Assembly (NCBI GenBank): GCA_029260815.1
Contig: JAJDCN010000130.1
Span: 929 to 64,928, forward strand
Direction: 5' to 3'
DNA from: Planctomycetota bacterium
GTDB taxonomy: Bacteria; Planctomycetota; B129-G9; JAJDCN01
DNA length: 64,000 nt
The notes below the pieces were generated by a model. The model did not search any database, was not told the DNA's origin, and worked only from the letters and a program-made list of their open reading frames with translations. Shown piece after piece: positions 17,327-30,121 of this stretch (position 1 is the stretch's first letter; each line of letters starts with the position of its first letter). Made by a program: the position numbers and the translations under genes.

Positions 17327-18850
17327 TTAGGCCTGTCGGCCGAAGGTCAGCAGGAACTCGGCGTTGGACTTGGTCTTCTTCAATTTCTCGGTGAGCAGTT
17401 CCATCGCCTCGGTGATGTTCATCTCATTGAGCACTTTGCGCAGAATCCAGATACGCTTGATCTCTTCGGGATCCAGCAGCAAATCTTCCTTTCGCGTACC
17501 GGACCGGTTAATGTCGATCGCCGGATAGATACGCTTCTCCACCATCCGTCGGTCCAGGTGCAGGTCCATGTTGCCGGTGGCCTTAAACTCCTCGAAGATC
17601 ACCTCGTCCATTTTCGAACCGGTATCGACCAGGGCCGTGCCCAGGATCGTCAAGGAGCCGCCCTCCTCGATGTTGCGCGCCGCCCCGAAGAACCGCTTGG
17701 GCCCTTGCAGCGCGGTGGCGTCCACGCCGCCGGACAGGATCTTGCCGGAGTGGGGGATCTCGGTGTTGTAGGCCCGGCCTAGCCGTGTGATGGAGTCGAG
17801 CAGGATCACCACGTCTTCGCCGTATTCCACCAGGCACTTCGCTTTTTCCAGAACCCGTTCGGAGACCTGGATGTGGCGGCTGGGTGGCTCGTCGAAGGTG
17901 GACGCGATGACCTCGCCCTTGACGGTGCGACGCATGTCGGTGACCTCTTCGGGCCGCTCGGCGATGAGCAGGACGATCAGGTTGATGTCCGGGCTGTTCG
18001 CCGCGATGGAGTTGGCAATCTGTTGCAACAGGATCGTCTTGCCGGTTCGTGGCGGCGCCACGATCAGGCCGCGCTGGCCCTTGCCGATGGGGCAGACCAG
18101 GTCGAGGATCCGCATGGACACGTTGTCCGGCGTGGTTTCCATGATCAGCCGTTCATCTGGAAACAGGGGCGTGAGGTCAGCGAAGACGATCTTGTCCTGT
18201 AATTTGTCCGGTTTGTCGTGGTTAATTTCATCGACGCGCAGCAGCGCGAAGTAGCGTTCGTTATCCTTGGGTGGACGGATCTGACCGCAGACGTAGGAGC
18301 CCGTACGGATGCCGAAGCGGCGAATTTGCGAGGGGGAGACGTAGATGTCATCCGGGCAGGGCAGGTAGTTGTACTCCGGCGAGCGGAGGAACCCGAACCC
18401 GTCCGGCAGGATCTCCAGGACCCCTTCGCCGAACATCAAGCCGTTGTTGCTGATTCGCTCCTTGACGATCTTGAAGATGATCTCCTGCTTTTTTAAGCCC
18501 AGGTATTCCTTGACGCCTTCCTTCTCGGCGACCGTCATCAAATCGGAGGCGCTCATGCGCTGGAGCTGGGCAATGTGGATGATTTGGCCGGCTTTTTCCG
18601 CATCTTTTTCCGCCGCCCGGATGTCGATCGTTTCGGTTGTGGCGTTCCCGCTGGCATTATTGTAATGGCCGCGGGAGCCGCCGTTGGCTGTGGAACTGTT
18701 GGAGGGTTTGGAGCCCCCGTTGCGACGACGCCCTTCGGTGGTCGGCGTTTTCGCGGCGCCCCCTTCGCTGGGCGTCGTGGCCTTTTCTTTTTCTGATTTG
18801 TTGTTGATTTTTGGACTTGGCATTCCGTTTACCTCCCGAGGCCCCTCCAA
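17327..18850 (-). CDS. rho: Transcription termination factor Rho (with a low-complexity N-terminal extension)
   Basis: 507 aa with a Walker A 'APPRTGKT', Q-loop and R-loop regions, and the N-terminal OB/CSD. Carries an extra ~90 aa N/S/G/T-rich leader. Confidence 0.9.
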
Positions 18851-19490: not shown

Positions 19491-22202
19491 TTATTCCACT
19501 TCTAGCCAATTGTCCCCGACCGCGATGTTGACCGTGAGCGGCACGCGCAAGTCCATGGCTCCGGTCATCCGTTCTTCGAAGGTCTTCGATTCCATGCCCA
19601 CGTCTTCGGTGGGCACTTCAAAGACCAGTTCATCGTGAATCTGCAACAGGATCCGGGCGCGGGATCCGCTGGTGTGAATGTGCTTCAGGATGTTGTTCAT
19701 GGCCACTTTGATCAGGTCCGCCGCGGACCCTTGAATGACGGTATTCACCGCGGTCCGTTCCGCATATTCTCGAGCCTGTCGCTGCCGCGCGTCGATGTCC
19801 GGCATTCCCCGTCGTCGCCCCAGCATGGTTTTCACGTAGCCCTGGCTTCGGGCGCTCTGAATGACTTCTTCTATGAATTGTTGGACTCCAGGGTAGGTCG
19901 CGAAATATTTTTCGATGAAGTCTTTGGCTTCCGCCTGTGGGATTTTCAACTCTTGAGACAGGCCGTATGGCGACTGACCATAGATTATACCGAAGTTCAC
20001 TGCTTTTGCAAGGATTCGATCTTCTTTTTTTAGATCTTCCGGTTTGACGCCGAAGACCTGACAGCCGACCTCGGTGTGAATATCCCGCCCGTCTCGAAAT
20101 GCCTGGAGCAGTGCCGCGTCCTGGGACAGGTGGGCGAGGATCCGTAGCTCGATCTGGGAATAATCGGCGGTAATTAGCGTTTTGGAAGGGTCCGATACGG
20201 TAAAGGCGGCCCGGATTTGTCGACCCAGTTCGGTGCGTACCGGGATATTCTGCAAGTTTGGATCCGAGGAGGACAGCCGACCGGTGGCGGCCACCGCCTG
20301 GTTAAACGACGCGTGAATCTTTCCGGTCTTCGGGTTGATCAACTCCGGCAGGGTGTCCACGTAGGTGGACTTGAGCTTGGTCAGTTGTCGGTATTCGATG
20401 ATCTTGCCCGGCAGCGGATGTTCCCAGGCCAACTCCTGTAGCACCTTCGCGTCGGTGGAGTAGCCGGTCTTGGTCTTTCGGATTTGGCGCAGGCCGAGTT
20501 TTTCGAAGAGGATTTCAGCCAATTGCTTGGGCGAAGCGATGTTGAAGGGCTCCCCGACGCTCTGATAGATTTCCTTCTCGATCTCGCAAATCCGGTCGGC
20601 CAGTTGCTCCTGCATCTGGGCCAGCAGTTGGGTATCCAACCGGATGCCGGAGAACTCCATGTGGATCAGCACCTGAACCAGGGGCATTTCCAATTCATAA
20701 AACAGCTTGGCCAGTTCTTCCTGTTCGATGCGCTCTTTGTAGACCTCGTAGAGTCGGAACGCAATGTCGGCGTCTTCGCAGGCGTACCGGCTGACCTCCT
20801 CCAGGGGAACTTGATCCATGGTGATCTGCTTCTTCCCTTTGCCGATCAACTCGGAGATGGGGATCATCCGGTAGTTAAACTCGGCCAGGGCCAACTCTTC
20901 GAGCTTGTGGCCGCGTCGTTCCGGCTGTAGGAGGTAGGATGCGATCATGGTGTCAAAATAGAGAGATGAAAGATGGATTTCGTGATTCAAGAGGACCAGG
21001 GCGTCGTACTTGATATTTTGTCCGACCTTAAGTATATCGGCATTTTCCAGCACCGGCTTGAGCGCAGCCAGCGTCCGGGTCGGGTCCAGGGTCTTGCCCC
21101 CCAGCGGTCCACGGACCGCCACGTAGTACCCCTCACCTGATTTGAAGCAGAACGCCAGCCCCACGATCTGTGCCCGCATTTCCGAGACACTGGTGGTCTC
21201 CAAATCCACGCTGAGGATCTTTTGCTTGGACAAGGTCTTGATCAGCGCAGCGAGCGCCTTTTCGTCGTTGATCAGTGTGTAGTTTGCGTCCGCCGCCTCC
21301 GCGCTCGCTGTACTTGCATCCGAAGAGGAGTCGGTTTCTTGAACCTGCGCGGCGAATTTGCGAAACCCCAGCCGCACGAACAGGGGCAGCACCTTCTCCG
21401 CGTCGATCGGCGGGATAGAAAGGTCTTTTACGTCCACCGACAGCGGGGCGTCGGTGGCGATCGTGGCCAACTGTTTGCTTAACCGCGCCTGGTCGGCGAA
21501 CTCGGTCAGGTTGCTGCGCAGTTTCGGCTTGGTGATCTGATCGGCCGCGGCGAGAACGCCCTCCATGCTGCCGAACTGCTGGATCAGGTTGATCGCGGTC
21601 TTGGGTCCCACGCCGGGGATTCCGGGGATGTTGTCCACGTTGTCGCCGGCCAGACCCAGGTAGTCGATCATCTGGGCCGGGGTGATGCCCAACTCCGCCT
21701 GGAGCGATTCCACGTTGTACTCTTCGTTCTTCACGACGTCGAACAGGACCGTTCGCTCGTCCAGGAGCTGCTTGAGGTCCTTGTCTTTGGTGATGAGGTA
21801 GCTGTACACGTCCTGGCTCGACGCCCGCCGCACCAGGGCTCCCAGCAGATCGTCCGCCTCGTAGCCGGTGCACTCGACGATGGGGATTTGCAGGGCCTGG
21901 ATTACCTCGCGAATCAATGGCATCTGGGCGACCAAGTCGTCGGGCATGGGCTTGCGGCCGGCCTTGTAATCGGCGAATTGATCGTGTCGAAACGTCTTGC
22001 CCGCCGCGTCGAAGGTCACCACCAGGTAGTCGGGCTTGTCCACCGTGAGAATCCGCAATAGCAGGTTGGTGAACCCATACACCGCGTTGACCGGCATGCC
22101 GTCGGGTGCGTTAAGGTTTCGGATCGCGTAGTAGGTCTGATAGGTGTAGGAGTGTCCGTCGATCAGGAACAGTCGTTTTTTAGCCTTCGCTCCCGTAGCC
22201 AT
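19491..22202 (-). CDS. polA: DNA polymerase I
   Basis: 903 aa with an N-terminal 5'-3' exonuclease domain, a 3'-5' exonuclease domain, and polymerase motifs A/B/C ('DYSQIELRILAHLS', 'RRxxKxxNFGxxYG', 'QIHDELVFE'). Confidence 0.9.
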   Translation of the reverse strand: MATGAKAKKRLFLIDGHSYTYQTYYAIRNLNAPDGMPVNAVYGFTNLLLRILTVDKPDYLVVTFDAAGKTFRHDQFADYKAGRKPMPDDLVAQMPLIREVIQALQIPIVECTGYEADDLLGALVRRASSQDVYSYLITKDKDLKQLLDERTVLFDVVKNEEYNVESLQAELGITPAQMIDYLGLAGDNVDNIPGIPGVGPKTAINLIQQFGSMEGVLAAADQITKPKLRSNLTEFADQARLSKQLATIATDAPLSVDVKDLSIPPIDAEKVLPLFVRLGFRKFAAQVQETDSSSDASTASAEAADANYTLINDEKALAALIKTLSKQKILSVDLETTSVSEMRAQIVGLAFCFKSGEGYYVAVRGPLGGKTLDPTRTLAALKPVLENADILKVGQNIKYDALVLLNHEIHLSSLYFDTMIASYLLQPERRGHKLEELALAEFNYRMIPISELIGKGKKQITMDQVPLEEVSRYACEDADIAFRLYEVYKERIEQEELAKLFYELEMPLVQVLIHMEFSGIRLDTQLLAQMQEQLADRICEIEKEIYQSVGEPFNIASPKQLAEILFEKLGLRQIRKTKTGYSTDAKVLQELAWEHPLPGKIIEYRQLTKLKSTYVDTLPELINPKTGKIHASFNQAVAATGRLSSSDPNLQNIPVRTELGRQIRAAFTVSDPSKTLITADYSQIELRILAHLSQDAALLQAFRDGRDIHTEVGCQVFGVKPEDLKKEDRILAKAVNFGIIYGQSPYGLSQELKIPQAEAKDFIEKYFATYPGVQQFIEEVIQSARSQGYVKTMLGRRRGMPDIDARQRQAREYAERTAVNTVIQGSAADLIKVAMNNILKHIHTSGSRARILLQIHDELVFEVPTEDVGMESKTFEERMTGAMDLRVPLTVNIAVGDNWLEVE

Positions 22203-22478
22203 GGAACCGCGTCTCCCACGGCCCGGCGGGGGGCGCGTGCCATGTCAATCGGACGGCAGGATCAAACATAAACAGTTCCGGATGTGCAGAATAAATGTAG
22301 GTAGCAGATTGCCAGGTTTCGGTGAATAAATCCGCAGGTTCAAACCGGAGAGTAGCAGGGCGTCGGTCGAGGGTCAAGGCCTTTTTTGATTGACACTTCG
22401 CCCTGCAATGGTGCATACTCGCGTGCGTAGCAACCCGCCAAGAAGGGGCCGATCGGCTGGCGGCGCGCGCAGGGAGAG

Positions 22479-23723
22479 TTGACCGCCCCCACCGGGCGCG
22501 ACCCGATCCAGGAGCCCGCCATGCGACACGAACGAGCCCTTCCTCACATCCTATCGATCTGCGTTGCCCTCGTCGCGGTTCTTGCCGCCGCCGGAACCTA
22601 TCTGTTCGGTCTCGCCGCCGAGCAAGCGGCACACCAACAGACCCGTGAGGAGCTTTTTCGGACGGTTCAGGCCCGCGAGGCCATAGCCTCCCAAGCCTAT
22701 GAGCTGGCCAATTTAATCGCCAGAAACGCTTCTGCACCCCAGGCGCGCGCAATTGTCGCCGAATCCCTGGGCGATGAAGAGCTTGATGAAGCCGATCTGA
22801 TCTCGCGCATCGATCGGCTGCACCGGCACCGGGCCGTGCTCAAACAGGGCCTTGATCTGGAGCGCAAAAAATTTCAAGACACCTACGACCGGTTCGATAC
22901 AAAGACTACCGAGCTTACCGATGGGTTCCAGCGAGTACACCAACAAGATGCAACGCAGATCGGGTCTCTTCAAAGCCAAATCGAGAATCTAAACGTTGAA
23001 ATGGAAAAGGCGACGGCGACGGCCAGCTCGAATCAAAAAGTGTTGCAACATCACGGGGAACGGCTGGCCGGACAATTCGTGGCGCTAAAAAAAGAATTCG
23101 AGGCATACAAAATCAAGTATCCGCCCCCTCCCCCTGACCCAGAGGATGAGCCAGGGCGGCCGGCGCACAACCCGGAGATGCCCGTGTTGCGCCCGGCGGG
23201 AGAGGTGCTTGAGGTCGATGGTCACAACGCGGTCATCAACCTCGGCGCGGCGGATGGCGTCATGAACGGCATGGTTTTCCTGGTGGTTCAGATGGAAGGC
23301 AATCATTCGACCGGCAAGAGCCTGGCCGTCGTACGGCAGGTCGAGCCCGGCAAAGGAGTTTCTCTGGTCCACTTGTATCAACCCATGGAGGCCGACGTGC
23401 TGATCGACCCTGTTGCGCGCAACCGACCGGTTGTCCAGGGCGATCGGGTGGCCAGTCCGTTTCATGCGCTTCGTCGCGACCTGGTCTTTTTTCTCGATGG
23501 GAGTTTTGTGCAAGTGGATGAATTCGGGTTGCAAACCGATCTGCGAGACCTCCGGCGCCGGATTGAAGAGTACGGCGGGCGCATTGCCGCGTCGCTCACC
23601 GAAGAGACGGACTACGCGGTGTTCGGCAACGAATATGACCCGAAGAATCTGGACCAGGCCAACCGTCTTGGGATCAAGGTCATCCCCAAATCCGGGATCC
23701 TGGTGTTCTTGAGCACGCGATAA
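22479..23723 (+). CDS. Membrane-anchored coiled-coil protein with C-terminal BRCT-like domain (paralog 1)
   Basis: 414 aa with an N-terminal TM helix, a long heptad-rich region, a Pro/acidic linker, a small beta-rich domain ('VINLGAADGVMNGMVFLV') and a C-terminal ~75 aa BRCT-like pattern ('FFLDG...EYGGRI...TDYAVFG'). Confidence 0.6.
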   Translation: MTAPTGRDPIQEPAMRHERALPHILSICVALVAVLAAAGTYLFGLAAEQAAHQQTREELFRTVQAREAIASQAYELANLIARNASAPQARAIVAESLGDEELDEADLISRIDRLHRHRAVLKQGLDLERKKFQDTYDRFDTKTTELTDGFQRVHQQDATQIGSLQSQIENLNVEMEKATATASSNQKVLQHHGERLAGQFVALKKEFEAYKIKYPPPPPDPEDEPGRPAHNPEMPVLRPAGEVLEVDGHNAVINLGAADGVMNGMVFLVVQMEGNHSTGKSLAVVRQVEPGKGVSLVHLYQPMEADVLIDPVARNRPVVQGDRVASPFHALRRDLVFFLDGSFVQVDEFGLQTDLRDLRRRIEEYGGRIAASLTEETDYAVFGNEYDPKNLDQANRLGIKVIPKSGILVFLSTR

Positions 23724-23879
23724 TGCGGAGATTTTTTGTTGACAGATCGCCTTAAATACTGGAAAATAGCGGTTTTAGATACGATGTCTCTTTTGAAGAG
23801 GGTCACAAGAGACATGCCGTTGTGCAGGGAGAGGCCTCCCGCGAGTGGGCGGGAGAGCAAAGGAATCGAGGAGTAATCC

Positions 23880-25166
23880 ATGCGATCGGGTAATTCGTCT
23901 ACCACCCCCATTATCATCTCTATCAGTCTGGCCCTGGTCTGTGTCGTGGGCGTGATTCTTGTCTACGTCTTTGTGGTCGCCGACCACGAGGCCAAGATCA
24001 CACAGATGGAGAAGCAGGTGAAGGCCAAGAATGAAGAAATCGCCCAGGTGTACAAGGAACAGGACGAGTTGAGTGCTCTGATCCAAGCCGACGCCGACCG
24101 GGCCGCCGCAGCTTCTTGGGCCAAAGAGGAGCTGAAGAACTACGCGCCGAGTGAGCCGGACGAGGACCTGCTGGATGAGGACCTGCTGGATGAAGAAAAC
24201 ACGCCAATCGACCTGGCCGGTTTGCTCAGGGCGCTCCGCAAAGGTCATGGACGCGAAGTGGACGCATTGACCCAAGCCAAGGACCTCGCCGAGGGCAAAG
24301 CAGAAGCGCTGGGGCGCACCGCGGAGGAGAAACAGAACGCCATCGACCGACTGGGATCTCAGAACAGCGAACTACAGAAAAATCTCGACGCCAATATTGT
24401 GAAGTTTAACAAAGAAATGACGGATTCGAGGCTCACGTACGAACAGAAGCAAGCCACCCACCTGGCGGAGATCAATAAACTTCGCTTGATCCGGGTCGAT
24501 CTGAATCGACGTGCGAAAGATGCCGAAGCGACGGCGAAGGATCTGAAGGATCAAGTCCTTATCTTGACACAGACTCAAGAGCCCGGGGAGGACGAATCCG
24601 ACAAGGTCGTGACTACCGCGGACTCCTTTCAAGCGGACGGAAAGATCGTCGATGTGGAAGGAGACATTGCCATCATGAATCTCGGCGCCGACGACGGCGT
24701 CAAGAACGGCATGGTCTTCCTTATTTACAAGCTGGAAGGGACCGCCCCCATGGCAAAAAGCTTGGGCGTGGTCCGTACCACGGATCCCGGCTCGCCGGTT
24801 TCATTGCTAAAGCTGTACCGGCCCAAAGGGGACGTAGAATTGATGGGGCAAGAGGCCACCAACCTGCCGGTCATCATCGGGGACTTTGTGAGCAACCCGT
24901 TTTTCATGCCAGGCCGAAAGCCGAAATTCTTTCTCGACGGAGCCTTCGCCACCACCGACAAGTGGGGAATCACCCTGGATATCAAAGACATCGAGCGCAA
25001 GATCATAGAATACGGCGGTGAGATCGTCCACCAGATCTCCGTGGATACCGACTACGTCGTCCTGGGCGAGGAATACAAAACGGCCAACCTGGAAAAGGCC
25101 CAGGGGTTGAGTTCCAAGATTATTTCCAAGGCGGACATTCTCGCCTTTCTCGATGTAGACCAGTAA
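23880..25166 (+). CDS. Membrane-anchored coiled-coil protein with C-terminal BRCT-like domain (paralog 2)
   Basis: 428 aa with the same architecture as the upstream gene. It also has an acidic 'DEDLLDEDLLDEE' repeat. The conserved blocks are 'IMNLGADDGVKNGMVFLIY' and 'FFLDGAF...EYGGEI...TDYVVLG'. Confidence 0.6.
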   Translation: MRSGNSSTTPIIISISLALVCVVGVILVYVFVVADHEAKITQMEKQVKAKNEEIAQVYKEQDELSALIQADADRAAAASWAKEELKNYAPSEPDEDLLDEDLLDEENTPIDLAGLLRALRKGHGREVDALTQAKDLAEGKAEALGRTAEEKQNAIDRLGSQNSELQKNLDANIVKFNKEMTDSRLTYEQKQATHLAEINKLRLIRVDLNRRAKDAEATAKDLKDQVLILTQTQEPGEDESDKVVTTADSFQADGKIVDVEGDIAIMNLGADDGVKNGMVFLIYKLEGTAPMAKSLGVVRTTDPGSPVSLLKLYRPKGDVELMGQEATNLPVIIGDFVSNPFFMPGRKPKFFLDGAFATTDKWGITLDIKDIERKIIEYGGEIVHQISVDTDYVVLGEEYKTANLEKAQGLSSKIISKADILAFLDVDQ

Positions 25167-25315
25167 AAACGAAACTGAAATCCAGCCACAGGGCAAACGT
25201 GAGACAAGGCCGGTGACTCCCTCTTGGGATTTCGATGGCTTCTTCTGAAACCCAATGGCCCCTACGACGAGAGGGGCCGTTTCCTATGGAGGCGTGAGTG
25301 GAACCGGAAAGCCGT

Positions 25316-26041
25316 ATGTCCTTCGGCGACCATCTCGACGAGCTTCGGGTTCGCCTGATCCGGTGCCTCATTGTGATCGTGCTTGGCGCCATCGTCTGTT
25401 ACACGTTCCGCAACGACATCATGGACCTGATCATCGGCCCCGTGGAAAAGGTGCTGGCCGAGTCCGGCGCGAAAAACGTCAAACTGGTCTACTTCAACCC
25501 CGTCGGCGCCTTCATGCCGTTTGTCAAGATCGCGATCTACGCCGGGTTCCTGCTTGCCTCGCCTTTTTGTCTCTACCAGGCGTGGGCATTTGTTCAATCG
25601 GGCCTGCTGACGCGCGAGCGCAAGTACGTGTACCGCTTTGCCCCCTTCTCCATCGGGATGTTCCTGGGTGGCGCCGTGCTGTGCTATCTCTTCATGGTGC
25701 CGATTACGTTAAACTTCTTGCTCAACTTTCCCGGCGAGCTGCTGGACCCGGTGCTGCGCGTAGACGACGTGATCAACTTCGTGCTGCTGCTCATGCTCAT
25801 GATGGGGGTCGTCTTTGAAACCCCCCTGGTCATGCTCTTCCTTAGTTACATCGGCGTGGGCACCGTGCCGTTCTACAATCACTACCGGCGGCACTTCATC
25901 CTCATCGCGGCCATCCTTTCCGCCTTTCTGACCCCCGCAGACCTGCCCTCCATGGTCATGATGGCCGTCCCGCTAATTCTGCTATACGAAGTTGGCATCC
26001 TGCTGGTCCGCGTGGCCGGAAAGAGAGTCTCCGCCGCATGA
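25316..26041 (+). CDS. tatC: Twin-arginine translocase subunit TatC
   Basis: Six predicted TM helices, with the TatC N-terminus 'HLDELRVRLIRCLI' and conserved 'LASPF' and 'YEVGILLV' regions. Confidence 0.85.
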   Translation: MSFGDHLDELRVRLIRCLIVIVLGAIVCYTFRNDIMDLIIGPVEKVLAESGAKNVKLVYFNPVGAFMPFVKIAIYAGFLLASPFCLYQAWAFVQSGLLTRERKYVYRFAPFSIGMFLGGAVLCYLFMVPITLNFLLNFPGELLDPVLRVDDVINFVLLLMLMMGVVFETPLVMLFLSYIGVGTVPFYNHYRRHFILIAAILSAFLTPADLPSMVMMAVPLILLYEVGILLVRVAGKRVSAA

Positions 26042-27099
26042 AAATCGCCCTGATCGGACCGCCCACCGCCGGAAAGACCACCCTGTTTGAAGCGATCGCC
26101 CCCGGCGGCTCCACCGCCGCACGCAAGGGTGCCCTGGGCTCCAACGCCGTTGTCAAAGTGCCCGACCCGCACGTGGACCGCCTGACGGAAATCTACAAAC
26201 CGAAAAAAACCATCCACGCCACCGTCGAATTCATCGACCTGCCCGGCCTGCCCACCGCCGGCAGCGGCGGCGACCAGCGCACCCGGATCCTTTCCGCCGC
26301 ACGAGACGCAGAAGCGCTCATCGAGGTCGCCGGTTTGTTCGACTTCGGCGCCGGCCCGCGCGATCTTGCCGCGGCCGAGGCCGAACTCGACGGTTTGCGC
26401 ACCGAGATGGCCCTGGCAGACCTGGAGATTATCGAGAAGCGTTTGGACAAGCTGGCTACGCAGATCCAGCGCAAGTCCGGCGACCCGGAACAAGACAAGC
26501 GCGAGCACGCCCTGCTCGAGCGACTGCGGGAAGCCATCGAAAACGGCGCCCTGGGCGCCATCGACTTCAGCCCCGAACAGGAAAAAATCTTCCGCGCCTA
26601 CCAGTTCCTCGCCGCCAAACCGCGCCTGACCGTCTACAACCTGGACGAGACCCAATTCGCCGACACCGCCCTGCGCGCGCAAATCGAGAGCAGCGGCCCC
26701 AACGTGATCGCCACCTGCGCCACCCTCGAGCAGGAGATCGCCCAGCTCTCCGCCGAAGAACAAACCGAGTTCCTGGCCGAGTACGGGCTCACCGAACCCA
26801 CCAGCGGCCGCGTGGTCCGTGCCTGTTACCACTTGCTCGACCTGATCTCCTTTTACACGGTGGGGGAGGACGAGGTGCGCGCCTGGACGATCCAGCGCGG
26901 CGACACCGCGGTCACCGCCGCCGGCAAGATCCACTCCGACATCGCCCGTGGCTTCATCCGCGCCGAAGTCATTTCGTATGAAGACGTCATCGAACACGGC
27001 GACTTCAAAGGCGCCAAAGCCGCCGGCAAAATGCGCCTGGAGGGCAAAGAATACGAAATCCTCCCCGACCACATCGTCCACTTCCGCTTCAGTGTCTGA
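26038..27099 (+). CDS. ychF: Ribosome-binding ATPase YchF (Obg-like GTPase family)
   Basis: 353 aa with a G1 'GPPTAGKTT', the YchF-specific 'NxxE' region and a C-terminal TGS domain. The start overlaps the tatC stop (ATGA). Confidence 0.9.
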   Translation: MKIALIGPPTAGKTTLFEAIAPGGSTAARKGALGSNAVVKVPDPHVDRLTEIYKPKKTIHATVEFIDLPGLPTAGSGGDQRTRILSAARDAEALIEVAGLFDFGAGPRDLAAAEAELDGLRTEMALADLEIIEKRLDKLATQIQRKSGDPEQDKREHALLERLREAIENGALGAIDFSPEQEKIFRAYQFLAAKPRLTVYNLDETQFADTALRAQIESSGPNVIATCATLEQEIAQLSAEEQTEFLAEYGLTEPTSGRVVRACYHLLDLISFYTVGEDEVRAWTIQRGDTAVTAAGKIHSDIARGFIRAEVISYEDVIEHGDFKGAKAAGKMRLEGKEYEILPDHIVHFRFSV

Positions 27100-27214: not shown

Positions 27215-28669
27215 ATGGGAACCCGCAACACACAAAATTCGTTTTTGGCACTGGCCACCGTGGCCGCTTTGGCCGTGGGGTGGGCAATTCTGCAAACTGC
27301 CAAGATCCACTCTACAAAAGAGGATCTGGAAGCTCTGCGCGCCCAGAACCAACAAAACCAGGAAACCATCGAACGAATTGAACGCGACCTGAAGGAAGCT
27401 CGTCTGCGAGCCTCGGACGATTCCATGGGCCAGGAACCGCCAGAGACGACTTCCTCCCTATCGGTCGAGCCCGCCGGTTCCAGCGATATAGACGCAAAGG
27501 TCGCCGCGCTGAAGGCAAAGCTGATTACCGCGTTCGAAGAGGAAGACGGCAAGGCTTTTGTTCAATCATTTCCCGAACTGCTCGCGATGGGCGAACCGGC
27601 TTATGGAGCGCTTGAAGAGCTTTTTCTGGCTTTAAAGGAGGATAAGGAAGCCTTCGAAAAACTCTATAAAGGCGAGGAAATGGCTTTTTTCGGGCTGATC
27701 TCCAATCCACATATGGCTCGGTTTGCGCTCCATGAGATCTTAAAGGGCAACGCATCTCCCTTGTCCGACGGAAGTGAAACTGAGGCACGTACAATCCAGT
27801 GGATCAGCCAGTTGCTCAAAGAAGAGGCGAAAGAACCGATGCACACCTTGCTGGCGACATCGGAAGAAGCTGGTGCTGTCGAGGGGGCAATCCGTGCTTT
27901 GCACGACTATTACAAAGATCCTTCAACGCTCGCACAGGTCGAGGCACGCTTGTCCGGCGGCGACCTCACTCCCGAAATGAAATACGGAATCTTGCAGGAA
28001 ATCGCGTTCTTTCAAGAGCCTGAAGCGCGCAGAATTCTGGAGGGCTACACCGGGCCTGGCGCGGATCCAGAAGTGCTCGTCAAGACTCTCGCATTTCTGT
28101 TGCCCATGGCGATGCAGGACGATATTCCCCGTGTGAGGCAGGCCTTGAACAGCGTAGACCCGGCTCTGCGCGCAGAGGCCTTCGATTATCTCAACGCGTG
28201 GAGCTCTCTTCAGGCCAATGACGTGGGAAGCATGGGTACCTCATCACAGATGGGCGGCAACTACAAGACGATCACAGTGGAAGGGAAAGAATTTCTTGCC
28301 CAGGGGGAAGCGGAGGACACCTACCGACTTTTCGAACAGCCCCAAATCCAACAACTCGTTCTCGGCGCAGCGCGCAATGATGGAAATCAAGAAGTAAGGT
28401 TAAATGCCTTGAAGACCGCGCGTCTCTTTCCCGAGGAACTCAACACGCCGGTTCTCGTCGGGGCCTTGCAAGACACTGCTTTGCCGGTGCGCCAGCACGC
28501 CTTCGAGGAGCTTCGGCACAACCAGGCTGAATCAGTGACCGAAGCAATCCGTATTCAATCGGAGACCGAAAATGACGAAGCGCTTAAGGCCGGACTTCAA
28601 AAGAATCTCAAATGGCGCCTGGCGCGCGCGAAAAAGAAAACGCCCGCAGCACCACTTGATGAGCATTGA
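27215..28669 (+). CDS. Hypothetical HEAT/ARM-like helical repeat protein with N-terminal signal or anchor
   Basis: 484 aa with a hydrophobic N-terminus, a coiled-coil segment and repeated helical hairpins. No catalytic motifs. Confidence 0.45.
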   Translation: MGTRNTQNSFLALATVAALAVGWAILQTAKIHSTKEDLEALRAQNQQNQETIERIERDLKEARLRASDDSMGQEPPETTSSLSVEPAGSSDIDAKVAALKAKLITAFEEEDGKAFVQSFPELLAMGEPAYGALEELFLALKEDKEAFEKLYKGEEMAFFGLISNPHMARFALHEILKGNASPLSDGSETEARTIQWISQLLKEEAKEPMHTLLATSEEAGAVEGAIRALHDYYKDPSTLAQVEARLSGGDLTPEMKYGILQEIAFFQEPEARRILEGYTGPGADPEVLVKTLAFLLPMAMQDDIPRVRQALNSVDPALRAEAFDYLNAWSSLQANDVGSMGTSSQMGGNYKTITVEGKEFLAQGEAEDTYRLFEQPQIQQLVLGAARNDGNQEVRLNALKTARLFPEELNTPVLVGALQDTALPVRQHAFEELRHNQAESVTEAIRIQSETENDEALKAGLQKNLKWRLARAKKKTPAAPLDEH

Positions 28670-29339: not shown

Positions 29340-29625
29340 GCCACTGGCATGGGCTGGAGCGGTGCCGGGAGCATATACGGCGGCGGGTCGGTGGCATGGG
29401 CTCTGGTGTGGGCCGTGGTGTAGGAGCCGGCGCGGTTGGCGATGTGCCGGTGGCGTAGGCGCAAGCGTTTCCGCCGGTGGGGCCGCCGGTGTGTCGGTGG
29501 CATGGGCTCCGGTGTGGGCCGTGGTGTAGGAGCCGGCGCGGGTAGCCGTGTGTCGGTGATGCAGGCGCAAGCGTTGCTGCTGGTGGGGCCACCGGTGTGG
29601 GGCGAATGGGCGTTGGGTCTTCAGA
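29340..29625. repeat. Direct tandem repeat, ~107-bp unit, about 2 full copies plus partial flanking copies
   Basis: Read directly from the sequence. Unit 'ggtggcatgggctc[t/c]ggtgtgggccgtggtgtaggagccggcgcgg...' appears at ~29390 and again at ~29497 (period 107) with a few substitutions. Degenerate partial copies lie at ~29343 and ~29602. Confidence 0.7.
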
Positions 29626-29689: not shown

Positions 29690-30121
29690 GTGGACCCACT
29701 TCTTACCGCATTCGATTCTTTCCTGAAAAACAAGGGCTTGCGGTTTACCGAGCCCCGCCGTCAAATTGTTGAAAAGGTGTTGACCCTTCACACGCACTTT
29801 ACGGCTGAAGAATTATACGAGCAATTGAAGAACGAATACGGCCATATCTCCAAGGCAACGCTCTACCGGACATTGGCCCTGCTGACCGAGAGCAACGTCC
29901 TGGAGGCCCAGGATTTTGGGGCCGGTTCCAATTATTACGAGCACAAGCTGGGTCATACGCACCACGACCACATGGTCTGCTTGAAGTGCAACCGAATCAT
30001 CGAATTCAAGGATGACAAAATCGAAGCTGCACAAGATGCGATGGCCAAAAAGCTCCGTTTCAAGCCGAGATACCATACCTTGAAAATCTACGGCACCTGT
30101 AGCCGGTGCCTTGGTACCTAG
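29690..30121 (+). CDS. fur: Fur family transcriptional regulator
   Basis: 143 aa with a winged-helix N-terminus ('RFTEPRRQIVEKVL...HFTAEELY') and 'HHDH' plus CxxC...CxxC metal sites. Confidence 0.85.
   Translation: MDPLLTAFDSFLKNKGLRFTEPRRQIVEKVLTLHTHFTAEELYEQLKNEYGHISKATLYRTLALLTESNVLEAQDFGAGSNYYEHKLGHTHHDHMVCLKCNRIIEFKDDKIEAAQDAMAKKLRFKPRYHTLKIYGTCSRCLGT

What the first reader, a model, noticed from the sequence alone, without database searches (positions are those of the whole stretch)
22479..25166. Tandem paralogs with TM anchor, long coiled-coil, small beta domain and C-terminal BRCT-like domain, just downstream of polA
Two adjacent co-oriented genes (414 and 428 aa) share the same four-part architecture and near-identical blocks (VINLGAADGVMNGMVFLV versus IMNLGADDGVKNGMVFLIY, and FFLDGSF...EYGGRI...TDYAVFG versus FFLDGAF...EYGGEI...TDYVVLG). 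The C-terminal ~75 residues fit the BRCT pattern known from the NAD-ligase C-terminus: a hydrophobic strand plus G, then a '[IL]xxxGGxI' helix, then TDY[VL]VxG. Outside LigA, BRCT domains in bacteria are uncommon. I do not recognise one fused to a membrane-anchored coiled-coil scaffold as a described family. Because BRCT modules bind phosphopeptides and nick-adjacent DNA, these could be a membrane-tethered scaffold pair with a role in division, DNA processing or signalling, but that is speculation.
Basis: partly seen in the sequence, partly recalled or inferred. Interest (0 to 1): 0.75.

Follow-up and report, generated by a model that had tools for sequence, protein, structure and literature searches.

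The report
Membrane-anchored planctomycete pair with exported BRCT
Two neighbouring genes encode an uncharacterised, Planctomycetota-wide family of membrane-anchored rod proteins whose tip joins a flagellar FlgT-type barrel to a real BRCT domain, and that tip most likely sits outside the cytoplasm, where BRCT domains are not known to work.

Summary

The functional reading needs revision. Three results place the rod, barrel and BRCT outside the cytoplasm:
- The charge rule predicts N-in/C-out in 88% of 112 members.
- Three relatives carry lipoprotein or Sec signal peptides in front of the same module.
- One relative fuses the module to an HtrA-like protease.

The BRCT also lacks the phosphate-binding residues (Ser/Thr in 0 of 35 members) and is acidic, so DNA-nick or phosphopeptide binding is unlikely. 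The best reading is an inner-membrane-anchored periplasmic stalk that presents a protein-binding head, acting as an envelope tether or scaffold. That function is inferred, not shown. No paper describing the family was found in the library searched.

The parts
22521..23723 (+). Gene A, paralog 1: 400 aa from the ATG. The mechanical ORF starts at TTG 22479, giving 414 aa.
   Evidence: ORF list. AGGAG at 22510-22514 lies 6 nt before the ATG. Identical to database protein P0002, 400 aa.
22536..22619 (+). A: single N-terminal transmembrane segment (ALPHILSICVALVAVLAAAGTYLFGLAA), preceded by the basic tail MRHER and followed by an acidic flank.
   Evidence: Hydropathy and charge analysis: delta(C-N) = -3, predicting N-in/C-out.
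22620..23120 (+). A: alpha-helical stalk
   Evidence: Aligns with the helical region of B. Local heptad score 0.6-0.8; periodicity peak at 3.6.
23121..23198 (+). A: Pro-rich linker (PPPPPDPEDEPGRPAHNPEMPVLRP)
   Evidence: Read from the sequence. Corresponds to the disordered linker of B.
23199..23453 (+). A: FlgT_C-like beta-barrel
   Evidence: Alignments A1 and A2. Domain limits mapped from the B model through the pairwise alignment.
23484..23711 (+). A: BRCT domain
   Evidence: Pfam PF00533 25.2 bits against a cut-off of 21.3. Weak hits to the LigA C-terminus.
23880..25166 (+). Gene B, paralog 2: 428 aa
   Evidence: ORF list. GAGGAG at 23868-23873 lies 6 nt before the ATG. Identical to database protein P0001.
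23907..23981 (+). B: N-terminal transmembrane segment (aa 10-34)
   Evidence: Hydropathy 3.08. delta(C-N) = -2, predicting N-in/C-out. Helix 9-68 in the model.
23982..24083 (+). B: juxtamembrane helix (aa 35-68) with heptad periodicity
   Evidence: Power at period 3.5 is 1.37 against a null of 0.20 +/- 0.19, p about 0.0005. Model.
24084..24212 (+). B: acidic, low-confidence segment (aa 69-111). It includes a 15-bp x 2.4 tandem repeat at 24158-24193 that encodes DEDLLDEDLLDE.
   Evidence: pLDDT 61-70. Tandem Repeats Finder.
24213..24569 (+). B: one continuous 119-residue helix (aa 112-230), about 17-18 nm if straight
   Evidence: AlphaFold pLDDT 96-98. The length in nm is my own arithmetic at 0.15 nm per residue.
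24570..24638 (+). B: disordered linker (aa 231-253)
   Evidence: pLDDT about 40.
24639..24893 (+). B: FlgT_C-like beta-barrel (aa 254-338)
24924..25151 (+). B: BRCT domain (aa 349-424)
22390..22419 (+). Promoter-like site upstream of A (TTGACA-18-CATACT)
   Evidence: Consensus scan only: 3 sites found against 1.4 expected. Weak evidence.
23739..23767 (+). Promoter-like site upstream of B (TTGACA-17-GAAAAT)
   Evidence: Consensus scan only. Weak evidence.
19491..22202 (-). polA, the conserved divergent neighbour
   Evidence: ORF. Divergent polA | family-gene pairing seen in L001, most of L007-L035, and L039.
25298..26041 (+). tatC, the conserved downstream neighbour; ychF follows at 26038-27099
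   Evidence: Pfam TatC 1.2e-63 and YchF-GTPase_C 7.2e-33. Synteny.

Best explanation
A and B are two paralogs of a Planctomycetota-wide family of bitopic (type II) inner-membrane proteins. A short basic N-terminal tail stays in the cytoplasm and one transmembrane helix anchors the protein. The rest projects into the periplasm: an alpha-helical stalk of about 190 residues, a flexible linker, and a rigid two-domain head made of a FlgT_C-type beta-barrel packed against a BRCT domain.

The BRCT descends from the LigA/RFC1 type but has lost the phosphate pocket and become acidic. It most likely serves as a protein-protein docking or oligomerisation surface rather than a DNA or phosphopeptide reader.

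The most likely job is structural. The stalks pair through their helices as homo- or heterodimers, and the head docks onto a periplasmic, peptidoglycan-associated or outer-membrane partner. This would tether or space the envelope layers, or scaffold an envelope machine, in the way TolA, MreC, FtsB/FtsL or the FlgT/TsaP ring proteins do.

Shown: the domain identities, the family, the synteny and the loss of the phosphate triad. Inferred: the topology (strongly), dimerisation, the partner and the envelope role.
For: Domains:
- BRCT passes the Pfam gathering score in A and B and matches in 35/35 family members.
- The family profile hits LigA and RFC1 BRCTs at E 6e-10 to 6e-9 over the whole domain.
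- The model of the head has pLDDT 89.4 and pTM 0.79.
- FlgT_C matches 17/35 members.

Topology:
- delta charge (C-N) averages -2.6, is negative in 88% and positive in 3.6% of 112 members.
- The same script gives the right sign for 5 of 6 proteins of known orientation and N-in/C-out for A and B.
- Relatives carry the module behind a lipobox signal (P0080), a cleavable Sec signal (P0043), or a Sec signal plus a Trypsin_2/HtrA-like protease at E 5e-26 (P0147).
- FlgT-type barrels are known from periplasmic ring proteins FlgT and TsaP (bioRxiv 10.1101/2020.05.29.123786; weak profile hit to 6ve2_O).

Not a phosphate or DNA binder:
- T415/R423/K458 equivalents are S/T in 0/35, R/K in 12/35 and K in 3/35, while the fold-core G416, G434, T445 and A462 are kept.
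- BRCT net charge averages -4.0 and is positive in 1/35.

Stalk: helices 9-68 and 112-230 in the full-length model.

Housekeeping, conserved status:
- 748 library hits at E<=1e-3, and 63 of the top 150 carry the complete module.
- The rho-coaE-polA(-) | gene | tatC(-ychF) order is conserved at only about 25% identity to the window proteins.

Pairing: tandem pairs occur in the window and independently in L005. Within-genome paralogs are closer to each other than to cross-genome copies.
Against: - No experiment and no dedicated topology or signal-peptide predictor was available. The charge rule is a heuristic. K+R counts alone are less decisive (N-tail 1.6 against C-flank 3.0 per 15 residues).
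- All BRCT domains characterised so far are intracellular (own knowledge).
- The closest sequence relatives of this BRCT are the DNA-binding LigA/RFC1 type.
- The most conserved neighbour is polA in a divergent arrangement, with rho, scpB and, in L001, dnaA and recG nearby. This could hint at a DNA-related role.
- The export-signal relatives are distant and none could be shown to sit in the syntenic slot.
- No partner, no peptidoglycan-binding motif and no envelope genes are linked to the gene. The envelope-tether function is therefore by analogy only.
- A canonical coiled-coil heptad pattern is not demonstrable along the long helix.
Confidence: 0.5

Rival explanations
1. One reading: the N-terminal helix anchors the protein with its bulk in the cytoplasm, like EzrA, ZipA or RNase Y. 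The BRCT then recruits phosphoproteins or binds DNA ends or nicks, tethering replication, repair or segregation factors or the chromosome to the membrane.
For: The BRCT is most similar to the DNA-binding LigA/RFC1 class. The divergent pairing with polA is conserved across subfamilies. Neighbours include rho and scpB, and dnaA and recG in L001. In L004 the next gene is an FHA-domain protein. BRCT domains are otherwise intracellular (own knowledge).
Against: The charge rule predicts N-in/C-out in 88% of members, while true N-out/C-in controls show strongly basic C-flanks that this family lacks. Relatives carry lipoprotein or Sec signals and a periplasmic-type protease in front of the module. The phosphate-binding triad is lost and the domain is acidic. 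No shared motif was found in the polA intergenic region that would indicate co-regulation.
Confidence: 0.15
2. A division or cell-wall-growth factor specific to FtsZ-less Planctomycetota: a functional analogue of FtsB/FtsL/DivIC or MreC. Those are bitopic proteins with a periplasmic coiled coil plus a beta domain, and they organise peptidoglycan synthases. This is a specific version of the best explanation.
Against: The DivIC and FtsL scores are far below the family cut-offs (16.3 against 28.9; 9.5 against 42.45). Such hits are expected for any TM plus coiled coil. FlgT matches the barrel better than MreC does. No dcw, mre or peptidoglycan genes are adjacent in any locus examined.
Confidence: 0.15
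3. A Tat-pathway accessory protein: either a substrate of the Tat translocase, or a TatB-like or quality-control partner of TatC.
For: tatC lies directly downstream on the same strand in the window and in most loci.
Against: Only 16/112 N-tails contain RR and 1/112 fits a Tat-like motif. There is no similarity to TatA or TatB in Pfam or NCBIfam. Intergenic gaps of 77-250 bp separate the gene from tatC, and tatC is instead coupled to ychF. tatC is absent next to family genes in L004, L039, L040 and L041. The conserved block also holds unrelated housekeeping genes (rho, coaE, polA).
Confidence: 0.07

Closest known systems
BRCT domain of NAD-dependent DNA ligase LigA and of RFC1 (p140)
   Different: There is no ligase or clamp-loader part. 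The phosphate-binding T/R/K triad is lost and the net charge is acidic. The domain is fused to a membrane anchor, a stalk and a FlgT_C barrel, and it is probably extracytoplasmic.
FlgT (Vibrio flagellar H-ring protein) and TsaP (type IV pilus secretin-associated protein)
   Different: There are no FlgT_N or FlgT_M domains and no LysM. No flagellar or pilus genes are adjacent to A or B. These proteins add a TM anchor, a long helical stalk and a BRCT.
TolA, MreC and FtsB/FtsL/DivIC (bitopic inner-membrane proteins with a periplasmic helical stalk and a small C-terminal domain)
   Same: Overall layout and predicted topology: short basic cytoplasmic tail, one TM helix, long helix, globular C-terminal head. 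This is what A and B would work like.
   Different: No significant sequence match (DivIC and FtsL are below their cut-offs). The head is a different domain pair. No TolQR/Pal, mreBD or fts genes are nearby.
EzrA, ZipA and RNase Y (N-terminal anchor with cytoplasmic bulk)
   Same: An N-terminal single TM helix followed by long helices. This is the analogue if the rival cytoplasmic topology were true.
   Different: Those proteins have a basic flank right after the TM helix (delta(C-N) +2 to +4). This family has an acidic or neutral flank (mean -2.6).
HtrA/DegP proteases with C-terminal PDZ domains
   Same: In relative P0147 the barrel+BRCT module follows a signal peptide and a Trypsin_2 protease domain, at the place where HtrA proteases carry PDZ domains. 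This suggests a peptide- or protein-binding or oligomerisation role.
   Different: A and B have no protease domain. The comparison is positional only.

Membership tests
BRCT domain superfamily (Pfam PF00533) | Profile match at or above the curated gathering score | tested here: met
   A 25.2 bits and B 23.6 bits against 21.3; the isolated C-terminal 90 aa score 29.2 and 27.1 bits. 35/35 family members match, best 1.6e-9.
BRCT domain superfamily (Pfam PF00533) | Beta-alpha-beta-beta-alpha-beta-alpha fold with a parallel four-stranded sheet | tested here: met
Phosphate-binding BRCT subclass (phosphopeptide or 5'-phosphate DNA binders such as RFC1 and LigA) | Ser/Thr before the conserved Gly at the end of beta1, plus a basic residue in alpha1 and a Lys in alpha2 (RFC1 T415, R423, K458; roles recalled from the RFC1 p140 BRCT literature, could not be re-read here) | tested here: not met
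   Equivalents in 35 family members: S/T in 0/35 (A 14, L 7, I 6, V 5, D 2, C 1), R/K in 12/35, K in 3/35. A and B have Asp at the T415 position. Net charge averages -4.0.
NAD-dependent DNA ligase LigA (TIGR00575 / NF005932) | Full-length match including the adenylation, OB, Zn and HhH domains, above the curated cut-off | tested here: not met
   Only the C-terminal approximately 50 residues match: 21.5 and 18.7 bits against cut-offs of 444 and 369.
FlgT (flagellar H-ring protein) | FlgT_C-type beta-barrel | tested here: met
FlgT (flagellar H-ring protein) | FlgT N and M domains and a flagellar gene context | tested here: not met
   No such Pfam matches. The neighbours are polA, coaE, rho, tatC and ychF. 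No flagellar genes appear in any related locus.
FtsB/FtsL/DivIC septum-formation initiators | Profile match above the cut-off (PF04977, TIGR02209) | tested here: not met
   B scores DivIC 16.3 bits against 28.9 (E 0.0085) and FtsL 9.5 bits against 42.45. A has no hit.
TatA/TatB | Profile match; short TM helix plus hinge plus amphipathic helix | tested here: not met
   No TatA or TatB hit in Pfam or NCBIfam at E<=10. The uncharged TM stretches are 21-35 residues long.
MreC | MreC profile match and an mreB/mreD context | tested here: not met
Type II (N-in/C-out) bitopic membrane proteins | Cytoplasmic N-tail more positive than the flank after a single N-terminal TM helix; bulk exported | tested here: inconclusive
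   The charge rule is met: delta(C-N) is -3 for A and -2 for B, and negative in 88% of 112 members. Export-signal relatives support it. No experimental data or dedicated predictor was available.
Known anti-phage defence systems (PADLOC) | Match to any defence-protein model | tested here: not met
   0 families for A and B at E<=0.01.

The most novel reading that the evidence does not exclude
This would be the first exported BRCT domain. A LigA-type BRCT was recruited to the planctomycetal periplasm, stripped of its phosphate pocket and welded to a FlgT-type barrel at the tip of a roughly 20-25 nm inner-membrane-anchored stalk. The result is a phylum-specific, near-universal envelope protein, duplicated into probable heterodimer pairs in some lineages. 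It would tether or space the unusual planctomycetal cell envelope, or scaffold its FtsZ-independent division or growth machinery.
Probability: 0.3. Interest if true: 0.8.

Novelty: new variant of a known kind. Interest (0 to 1): 0.6.

Why it matters
BRCT domains are textbook intracellular modules of DNA repair and phospho-signalling. A conserved BRCT working outside the cytoplasm, without its phosphate pocket, would widen what the fold is known to do, and would show a DNA-ligase domain reused in the envelope.

Planctomycetota lack FtsZ (own knowledge) and have an unusual, poorly understood envelope. A phylum-wide, syntenically fixed, membrane-anchored rod protein with a rigid two-domain head is a concrete, testable candidate for an envelope tether or scaffold.

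The family also gives a clean target for experiments: topology reporters, pull-downs, cryo-ET, and deletion or depletion in Planctopirus or Gemmata, provided a homolog is first confirmed there. If the topology prediction is wrong, the alternative is a membrane-tethered BRCT paired with polA, which would be interesting for different reasons.

Tried and rejected
- Word-indexed homolog searches with B, with A1 and with A2 found only the protein itself, nothing, or a few fragments. The exhaustive representative search was what revealed the family.
- The genome-contig scan with A1 found nothing, A2 was too divergent to seed a scan, and the A3 subgroup returned only one marine clade plus a few relatives.
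- The metagenome scan for close relatives of the window's own pair found nothing, so the source lineage stays unresolved beyond 'Planctomycetota-like'.
- An exact look-up of the contigs encoding B failed.
- The afdb50 fold library was not available, so distribution in cultured species could not be read from AlphaFold DB.
- Tat-substrate idea rejected: 1/112 N-termini has a Tat-like motif.
- Defence-system idea rejected: no PADLOC hits.
- Co-regulation with polA through a shared operator: no 9-mer is shared by more than 3 of 12 upstream regions, and those include near-duplicate loci.
- Global heptad periodicity of the long helix is not significant (p 0.26 for B, 0.09 for A), so 'canonical coiled coil' is not claimed.
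- No solved structure matches barrel plus BRCT as a unit. The two-domain 'hits' (ferredoxin reductases, F1-ATPase) have rmsd 11-12 A and TM about 0.3.
- Literature searches for BRCT with Planctomycetes or Planctomycetota, with coiled-coil, or with periplasmic found nothing relevant.
- A search to re-verify the RFC1 T415/R423/K458 roles found no paper in the library, so that point rests on my own knowledge.
- The context of the signal-peptide relative P0043 was a 3.9-kb contig and was uninformative.
- The HEAT-repeat neighbour is not conserved at sequence level in other loci.
Full report
**1. What is in the sequence**

Two co-oriented ORFs occupy 22479-23723 and 23880-25166 on the plus strand.
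- They are clear paralogs: BLASTP gives 31% identity over the full length at E 2e-52, and the C-terminal 180 residues are 44% identical (alignment A1).
- Gene A most likely starts at the ATG at 22521. AGGAG lies 6 nt upstream, and this gives the 400-aa protein found in the public collection as P0002. The TTG at 22479 has its Shine-Dalgarno-like purines directly abutting it.
- Gene B has GAGGAG 6 nt before its ATG.
- polA (19491-22202) lies on the minus strand, so the pair is divergent from polA, not downstream of it.
- The wider order is scpB(+), rho(-), coaE(-), polA(-) | A(+), B(+), tatC(+), ychF(+), a TM-anchored HEAT-repeat protein, DUF6868, fur.
- No other family copy exists in the 64-kb window. 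The rest of the window is housekeeping and metabolic genes.

**2. Domain identities**

The BRCT call is right.
- Pfam PF00533 passes its gathering score in both proteins (25.2 and 23.6 bits against 21.3).
- A profile of 35 family C-termini (A2) hits the complete BRCT of T. thermophilus LigA (1l7b, 6e-10), human RFC1 (2k6g, 5e-9) and E. coli LigA (2owo, 6e-9). All 35 members hit Pfam BRCT.
- An AlphaFold model of B's last 183 residues is confident (pLDDT 89.4, pTM 0.79).

| Search | Beta domain | C-terminal domain |
|---|---|---|
| Foldseek | FlgT, 8z5n and 3w1e | RFC1 BRCT at 1.1e-5; LigA |

- The 'small beta domain' is therefore a FlgT_C-type barrel. Pfam FlgT_C matches 17/35 relatives, though not A or B themselves.
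- No solved structure matches the two domains as a unit (TM at most 0.36).

The full-length model of B (pLDDT 83.4):

| Residues (aa) | Feature |
|---|---|
| 9-68 | TM helix continuing into a helix |
| 69-111 | acidic, low-confidence segment holding a DEDLLDEDLLDE repeat (15-bp tandem repeat) |
| 112-230 | one continuous 119-residue helix, pLDDT 96-98 |
| 231-253 | disordered linker |
| after 253 | barrel (254-338) and BRCT (349-424) |

Heptad periodicity is significant only for the juxtamembrane helix. The long helix peaks near 3.6 residues. I therefore call it a helical rod and a probable, not proven, coiled coil.

**3. The family and its genomic setting**

Word-indexed searches failed. An exhaustive profile search of 1.84 billion representatives found 748 proteins at E<=1e-3, with only the two window proteins below 1e-30.
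- Of the top 150, 63 carry the complete barrel+BRCT module, and most are 395-490 aa with one TM helix near residue 10.
- The named members are all MAG proteins from Planctomycetota, including one Phycisphaerae MAG. They are called 'hypothetical protein' or 'BRCT domain-containing protein'.
- No paper describing the family was found in the library searched.

The position is strikingly conserved at about 25% identity to the window proteins. The order rho-coaE-polA(-) | family gene(+) | tatC(+), often followed by ychF, appears in these loci:

| Locus | Arrangement |
|---|---|
| L001 | rho, coaE, polA, gene, tatC |
| L005 | rho, coaE, a tandem pair, tatC, ychF |
| L006 | gene, tatC, ychF |
| L007-L035 | the same order in almost all 29 loci found by the A3 scan |

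- A member of a subfamily with an insertion in the BRCT again sits divergent from polA (L039).
- L004 keeps rho-coaE but has no tatC. L040 and L041 lie elsewhere in the genome.
- The tandem pair in L005 is a separate duplication, or the pairs evolve in concert: within-genome paralogs (E 2e-52 and 3e-29) are far closer than cross-genome pairs (1e-7 to 1e-14).

**4. Where the head sits**

This is the point that changes the interpretation.
- Across 112 members the N-tail is basic and the flank after the TM helix is acidic or neutral. The mean charge difference C-minus-N is -2.6. It is negative in 88% and positive in 3.6% of members. The residue just before the hydrophobic stretch is R or K in 77%.
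- The same script gives the correct sign for FtsB, TolA, ZipA, EzrA and RNase Y and is undecided for FtsL. It calls A and B N-in/C-out.
- Independently, relatives carry the same module behind bona fide export signals:
  - P0080 has a lipoprotein signal (MKRLILLVSVIGLGIIGG|C).
  - P0043 has a cleavable Sec signal (…SGACFVNA|QA) followed by a helical segment and the full module.
  - P0147 has a Sec signal (…FDARA|D), an HtrA-like Trypsin_2 domain (5e-26), then FlgT_C and BRCT.
- FlgT-type barrels are otherwise known from the periplasmic ring proteins FlgT and TsaP.
- Together these results make an extracytoplasmic location of the rod, barrel and BRCT the best-supported reading. My estimate is about 0.75-0.8. 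It remains an inference.

**5. What the BRCT can and cannot do**

In RFC1, T415, R423 and K458 bind the DNA 5'-phosphate, and LigA has the same T, R and K at these positions. The residue roles are from my own knowledge of the RFC1 p140 BRCT work and could not be re-read here.
- In the family these columns are S/T in 0/35, R/K in 12/35 and K in 3/35. A and B have Asp at the first position. The fold-core residues are conserved.
- The family BRCT is acidic (mean net charge -4.0, positive in 1/35) against +1 and +2 for RFC1 and LigA.
- Phosphopeptide or nick binding is therefore unlikely whatever the compartment. The domain more plausibly acts as a protein-protein interface.
- In P0147 the module stands where HtrA proteases carry PDZ domains. 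That fits a binding or oligomerisation role.

**6. Most likely mechanism and rivals**

Best explanation (confidence about 0.5 for the whole statement): bitopic type II inner-membrane proteins whose periplasmic helical stalk presents a rigid FlgT-barrel/BRCT head. The long helix alone would be about 17-18 nm if straight. The head docks on an envelope partner. The stalks probably pair, with A-B heterodimers possible where the gene is duplicated. This would tether or space envelope layers or scaffold an envelope machine, by analogy with TolA, MreC, FtsB/FtsL and FlgT/TsaP. The domain identities, the family, the synteny and the loss of the phosphate site are shown. Topology, pairing, partner and role are inferred.

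Rivals:
- **Cytoplasmic membrane-tethered BRCT scaffold for DNA or phosphoproteins (0.15).** It is favoured by the LigA/RFC1 affinity and the conserved polA pairing. It is disfavoured by the results in sections 4 and 5 and by the absence of any shared motif in the polA intergenic region.
- **Tat accessory or substrate (0.07).** The tatC adjacency supports it. Against it, 1/112 N-termini has a Tat-like motif, there is no TatA/B similarity, the intergenic gaps are sizeable, and tatC is missing in several loci.
- **Defence system.** Excluded, with no PADLOC hits.

**7. Comparison with the known, novelty and score**

- The proteins contain a true BRCT. They are not members of the phosphate-binding BRCT subclass, nor of LigA, FlgT, FtsB/FtsL, TatA/B or MreC: each was tested and a defining feature was not met (see the membership table).
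- They work most like bitopic periplasmic stalk proteins.
- Both domains are known. The architecture (TM, rod, FlgT_C, BRCT), its phylum-wide conservation and the probable export of a BRCT were not found described in the sources searched. I rate it a new variant of a known kind.
- Interest is 0.6. An exported, pocket-less BRCT would surprise specialists, and the family is a concrete candidate for planctomycetal envelope biology. Against that, the function is inferred only and the localisation is computational.

Noticed in passing
window 29387-29599: A 106-bp unit repeated 2.0 times (87% matches, score 335) lies in the GC-rich region just upstream of the fur-family gene (29690-30121). Several overlapping mechanical ORFs with Gly-rich translations cross it.
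   Followed up: no
window 24158-24193: A 15-bp x 2.4 tandem repeat inside gene B encodes the acidic DEDLLDEDLLDE stretch, in the low-confidence segment between the two helices. A has a comparable acidic patch (GDEELDEADL). This may be a short linear motif or a hinge.
   Followed up: partly
window 17327-18850 (-): Rho carries an N-terminal extension of about 90 residues, rich in Gly, Ser, Asn, Thr and basic residues, ahead of the Rho_N domain (Pfam domains start at aa 94).
   Followed up: no
window 27215-28669 (+); L039 8899-10815 (-): Downstream of tatC-ychF is another protein with an N-terminal TM helix and a helical segment, ending in HEAT repeats. A HEAT-repeat protein also lies two genes from the family gene in L039. 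tblastn found no sequence-level counterpart in the other loci.
   Followed up: partly
L037 6001-7713 (P0147); L036 597-1337 (P0080); L004 8001-9437 (P0003); L041 7001-8752 (P0016): Architectural variants of the barrel+BRCT module: signal peptide plus HtrA-like protease plus module plus an extra FlgT_C-like barrel (P0147); a lipoprotein-anchored module with an insertion of about 40 aa in the BRCT (P0080); TM-rod proteins with two BRCTs (P0003, P0016). P0016 sits next to a DsbH-like thioredoxin gene.
   Followed up: partly
L004 9876-12005: In this locus the gene after the family member is an FHA-domain glycosyltransferase instead of tatC.
   Followed up: no
L016 (QNYK01000057.1) and L034 (JAFMMO010000011.1): MAGs labelled 'Bacillota bacterium' and 'Proteobacteria bacterium' carry the same rho-coaE-polA | family gene block, with 62-83% identity to Planctomycetota MAG proteins. 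This is probably mis-binning or mislabelling.
   Followed up: no
L001 1-2607; L005 1-4819: Type IV pilus or T2SS genes lie just beyond rho on the far side of the conserved block in two distant loci: N_methyl pilin-like genes in L001, and PilB-like T2SSE, T2SSF and a PilS-type kinase in L005. They are not present at that position in the window.
   Followed up: no
window 25257-25278: A GC-rich hairpin (GGCCCCT-8 nt loop-AGGGGCC) lies in the 131-bp gap between B and tatC. It is a possible attenuator or terminator, but it has no clear T-tract on the plus strand.
   Followed up: no
window 22479-25166 against public collections: The window's own lineage is very sparsely sampled. A and B have no relative closer than E 1e-14 among 1.84 billion representatives, and neither the genome nor the metagenome contig scans recovered a close relative.
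   Followed up: partly
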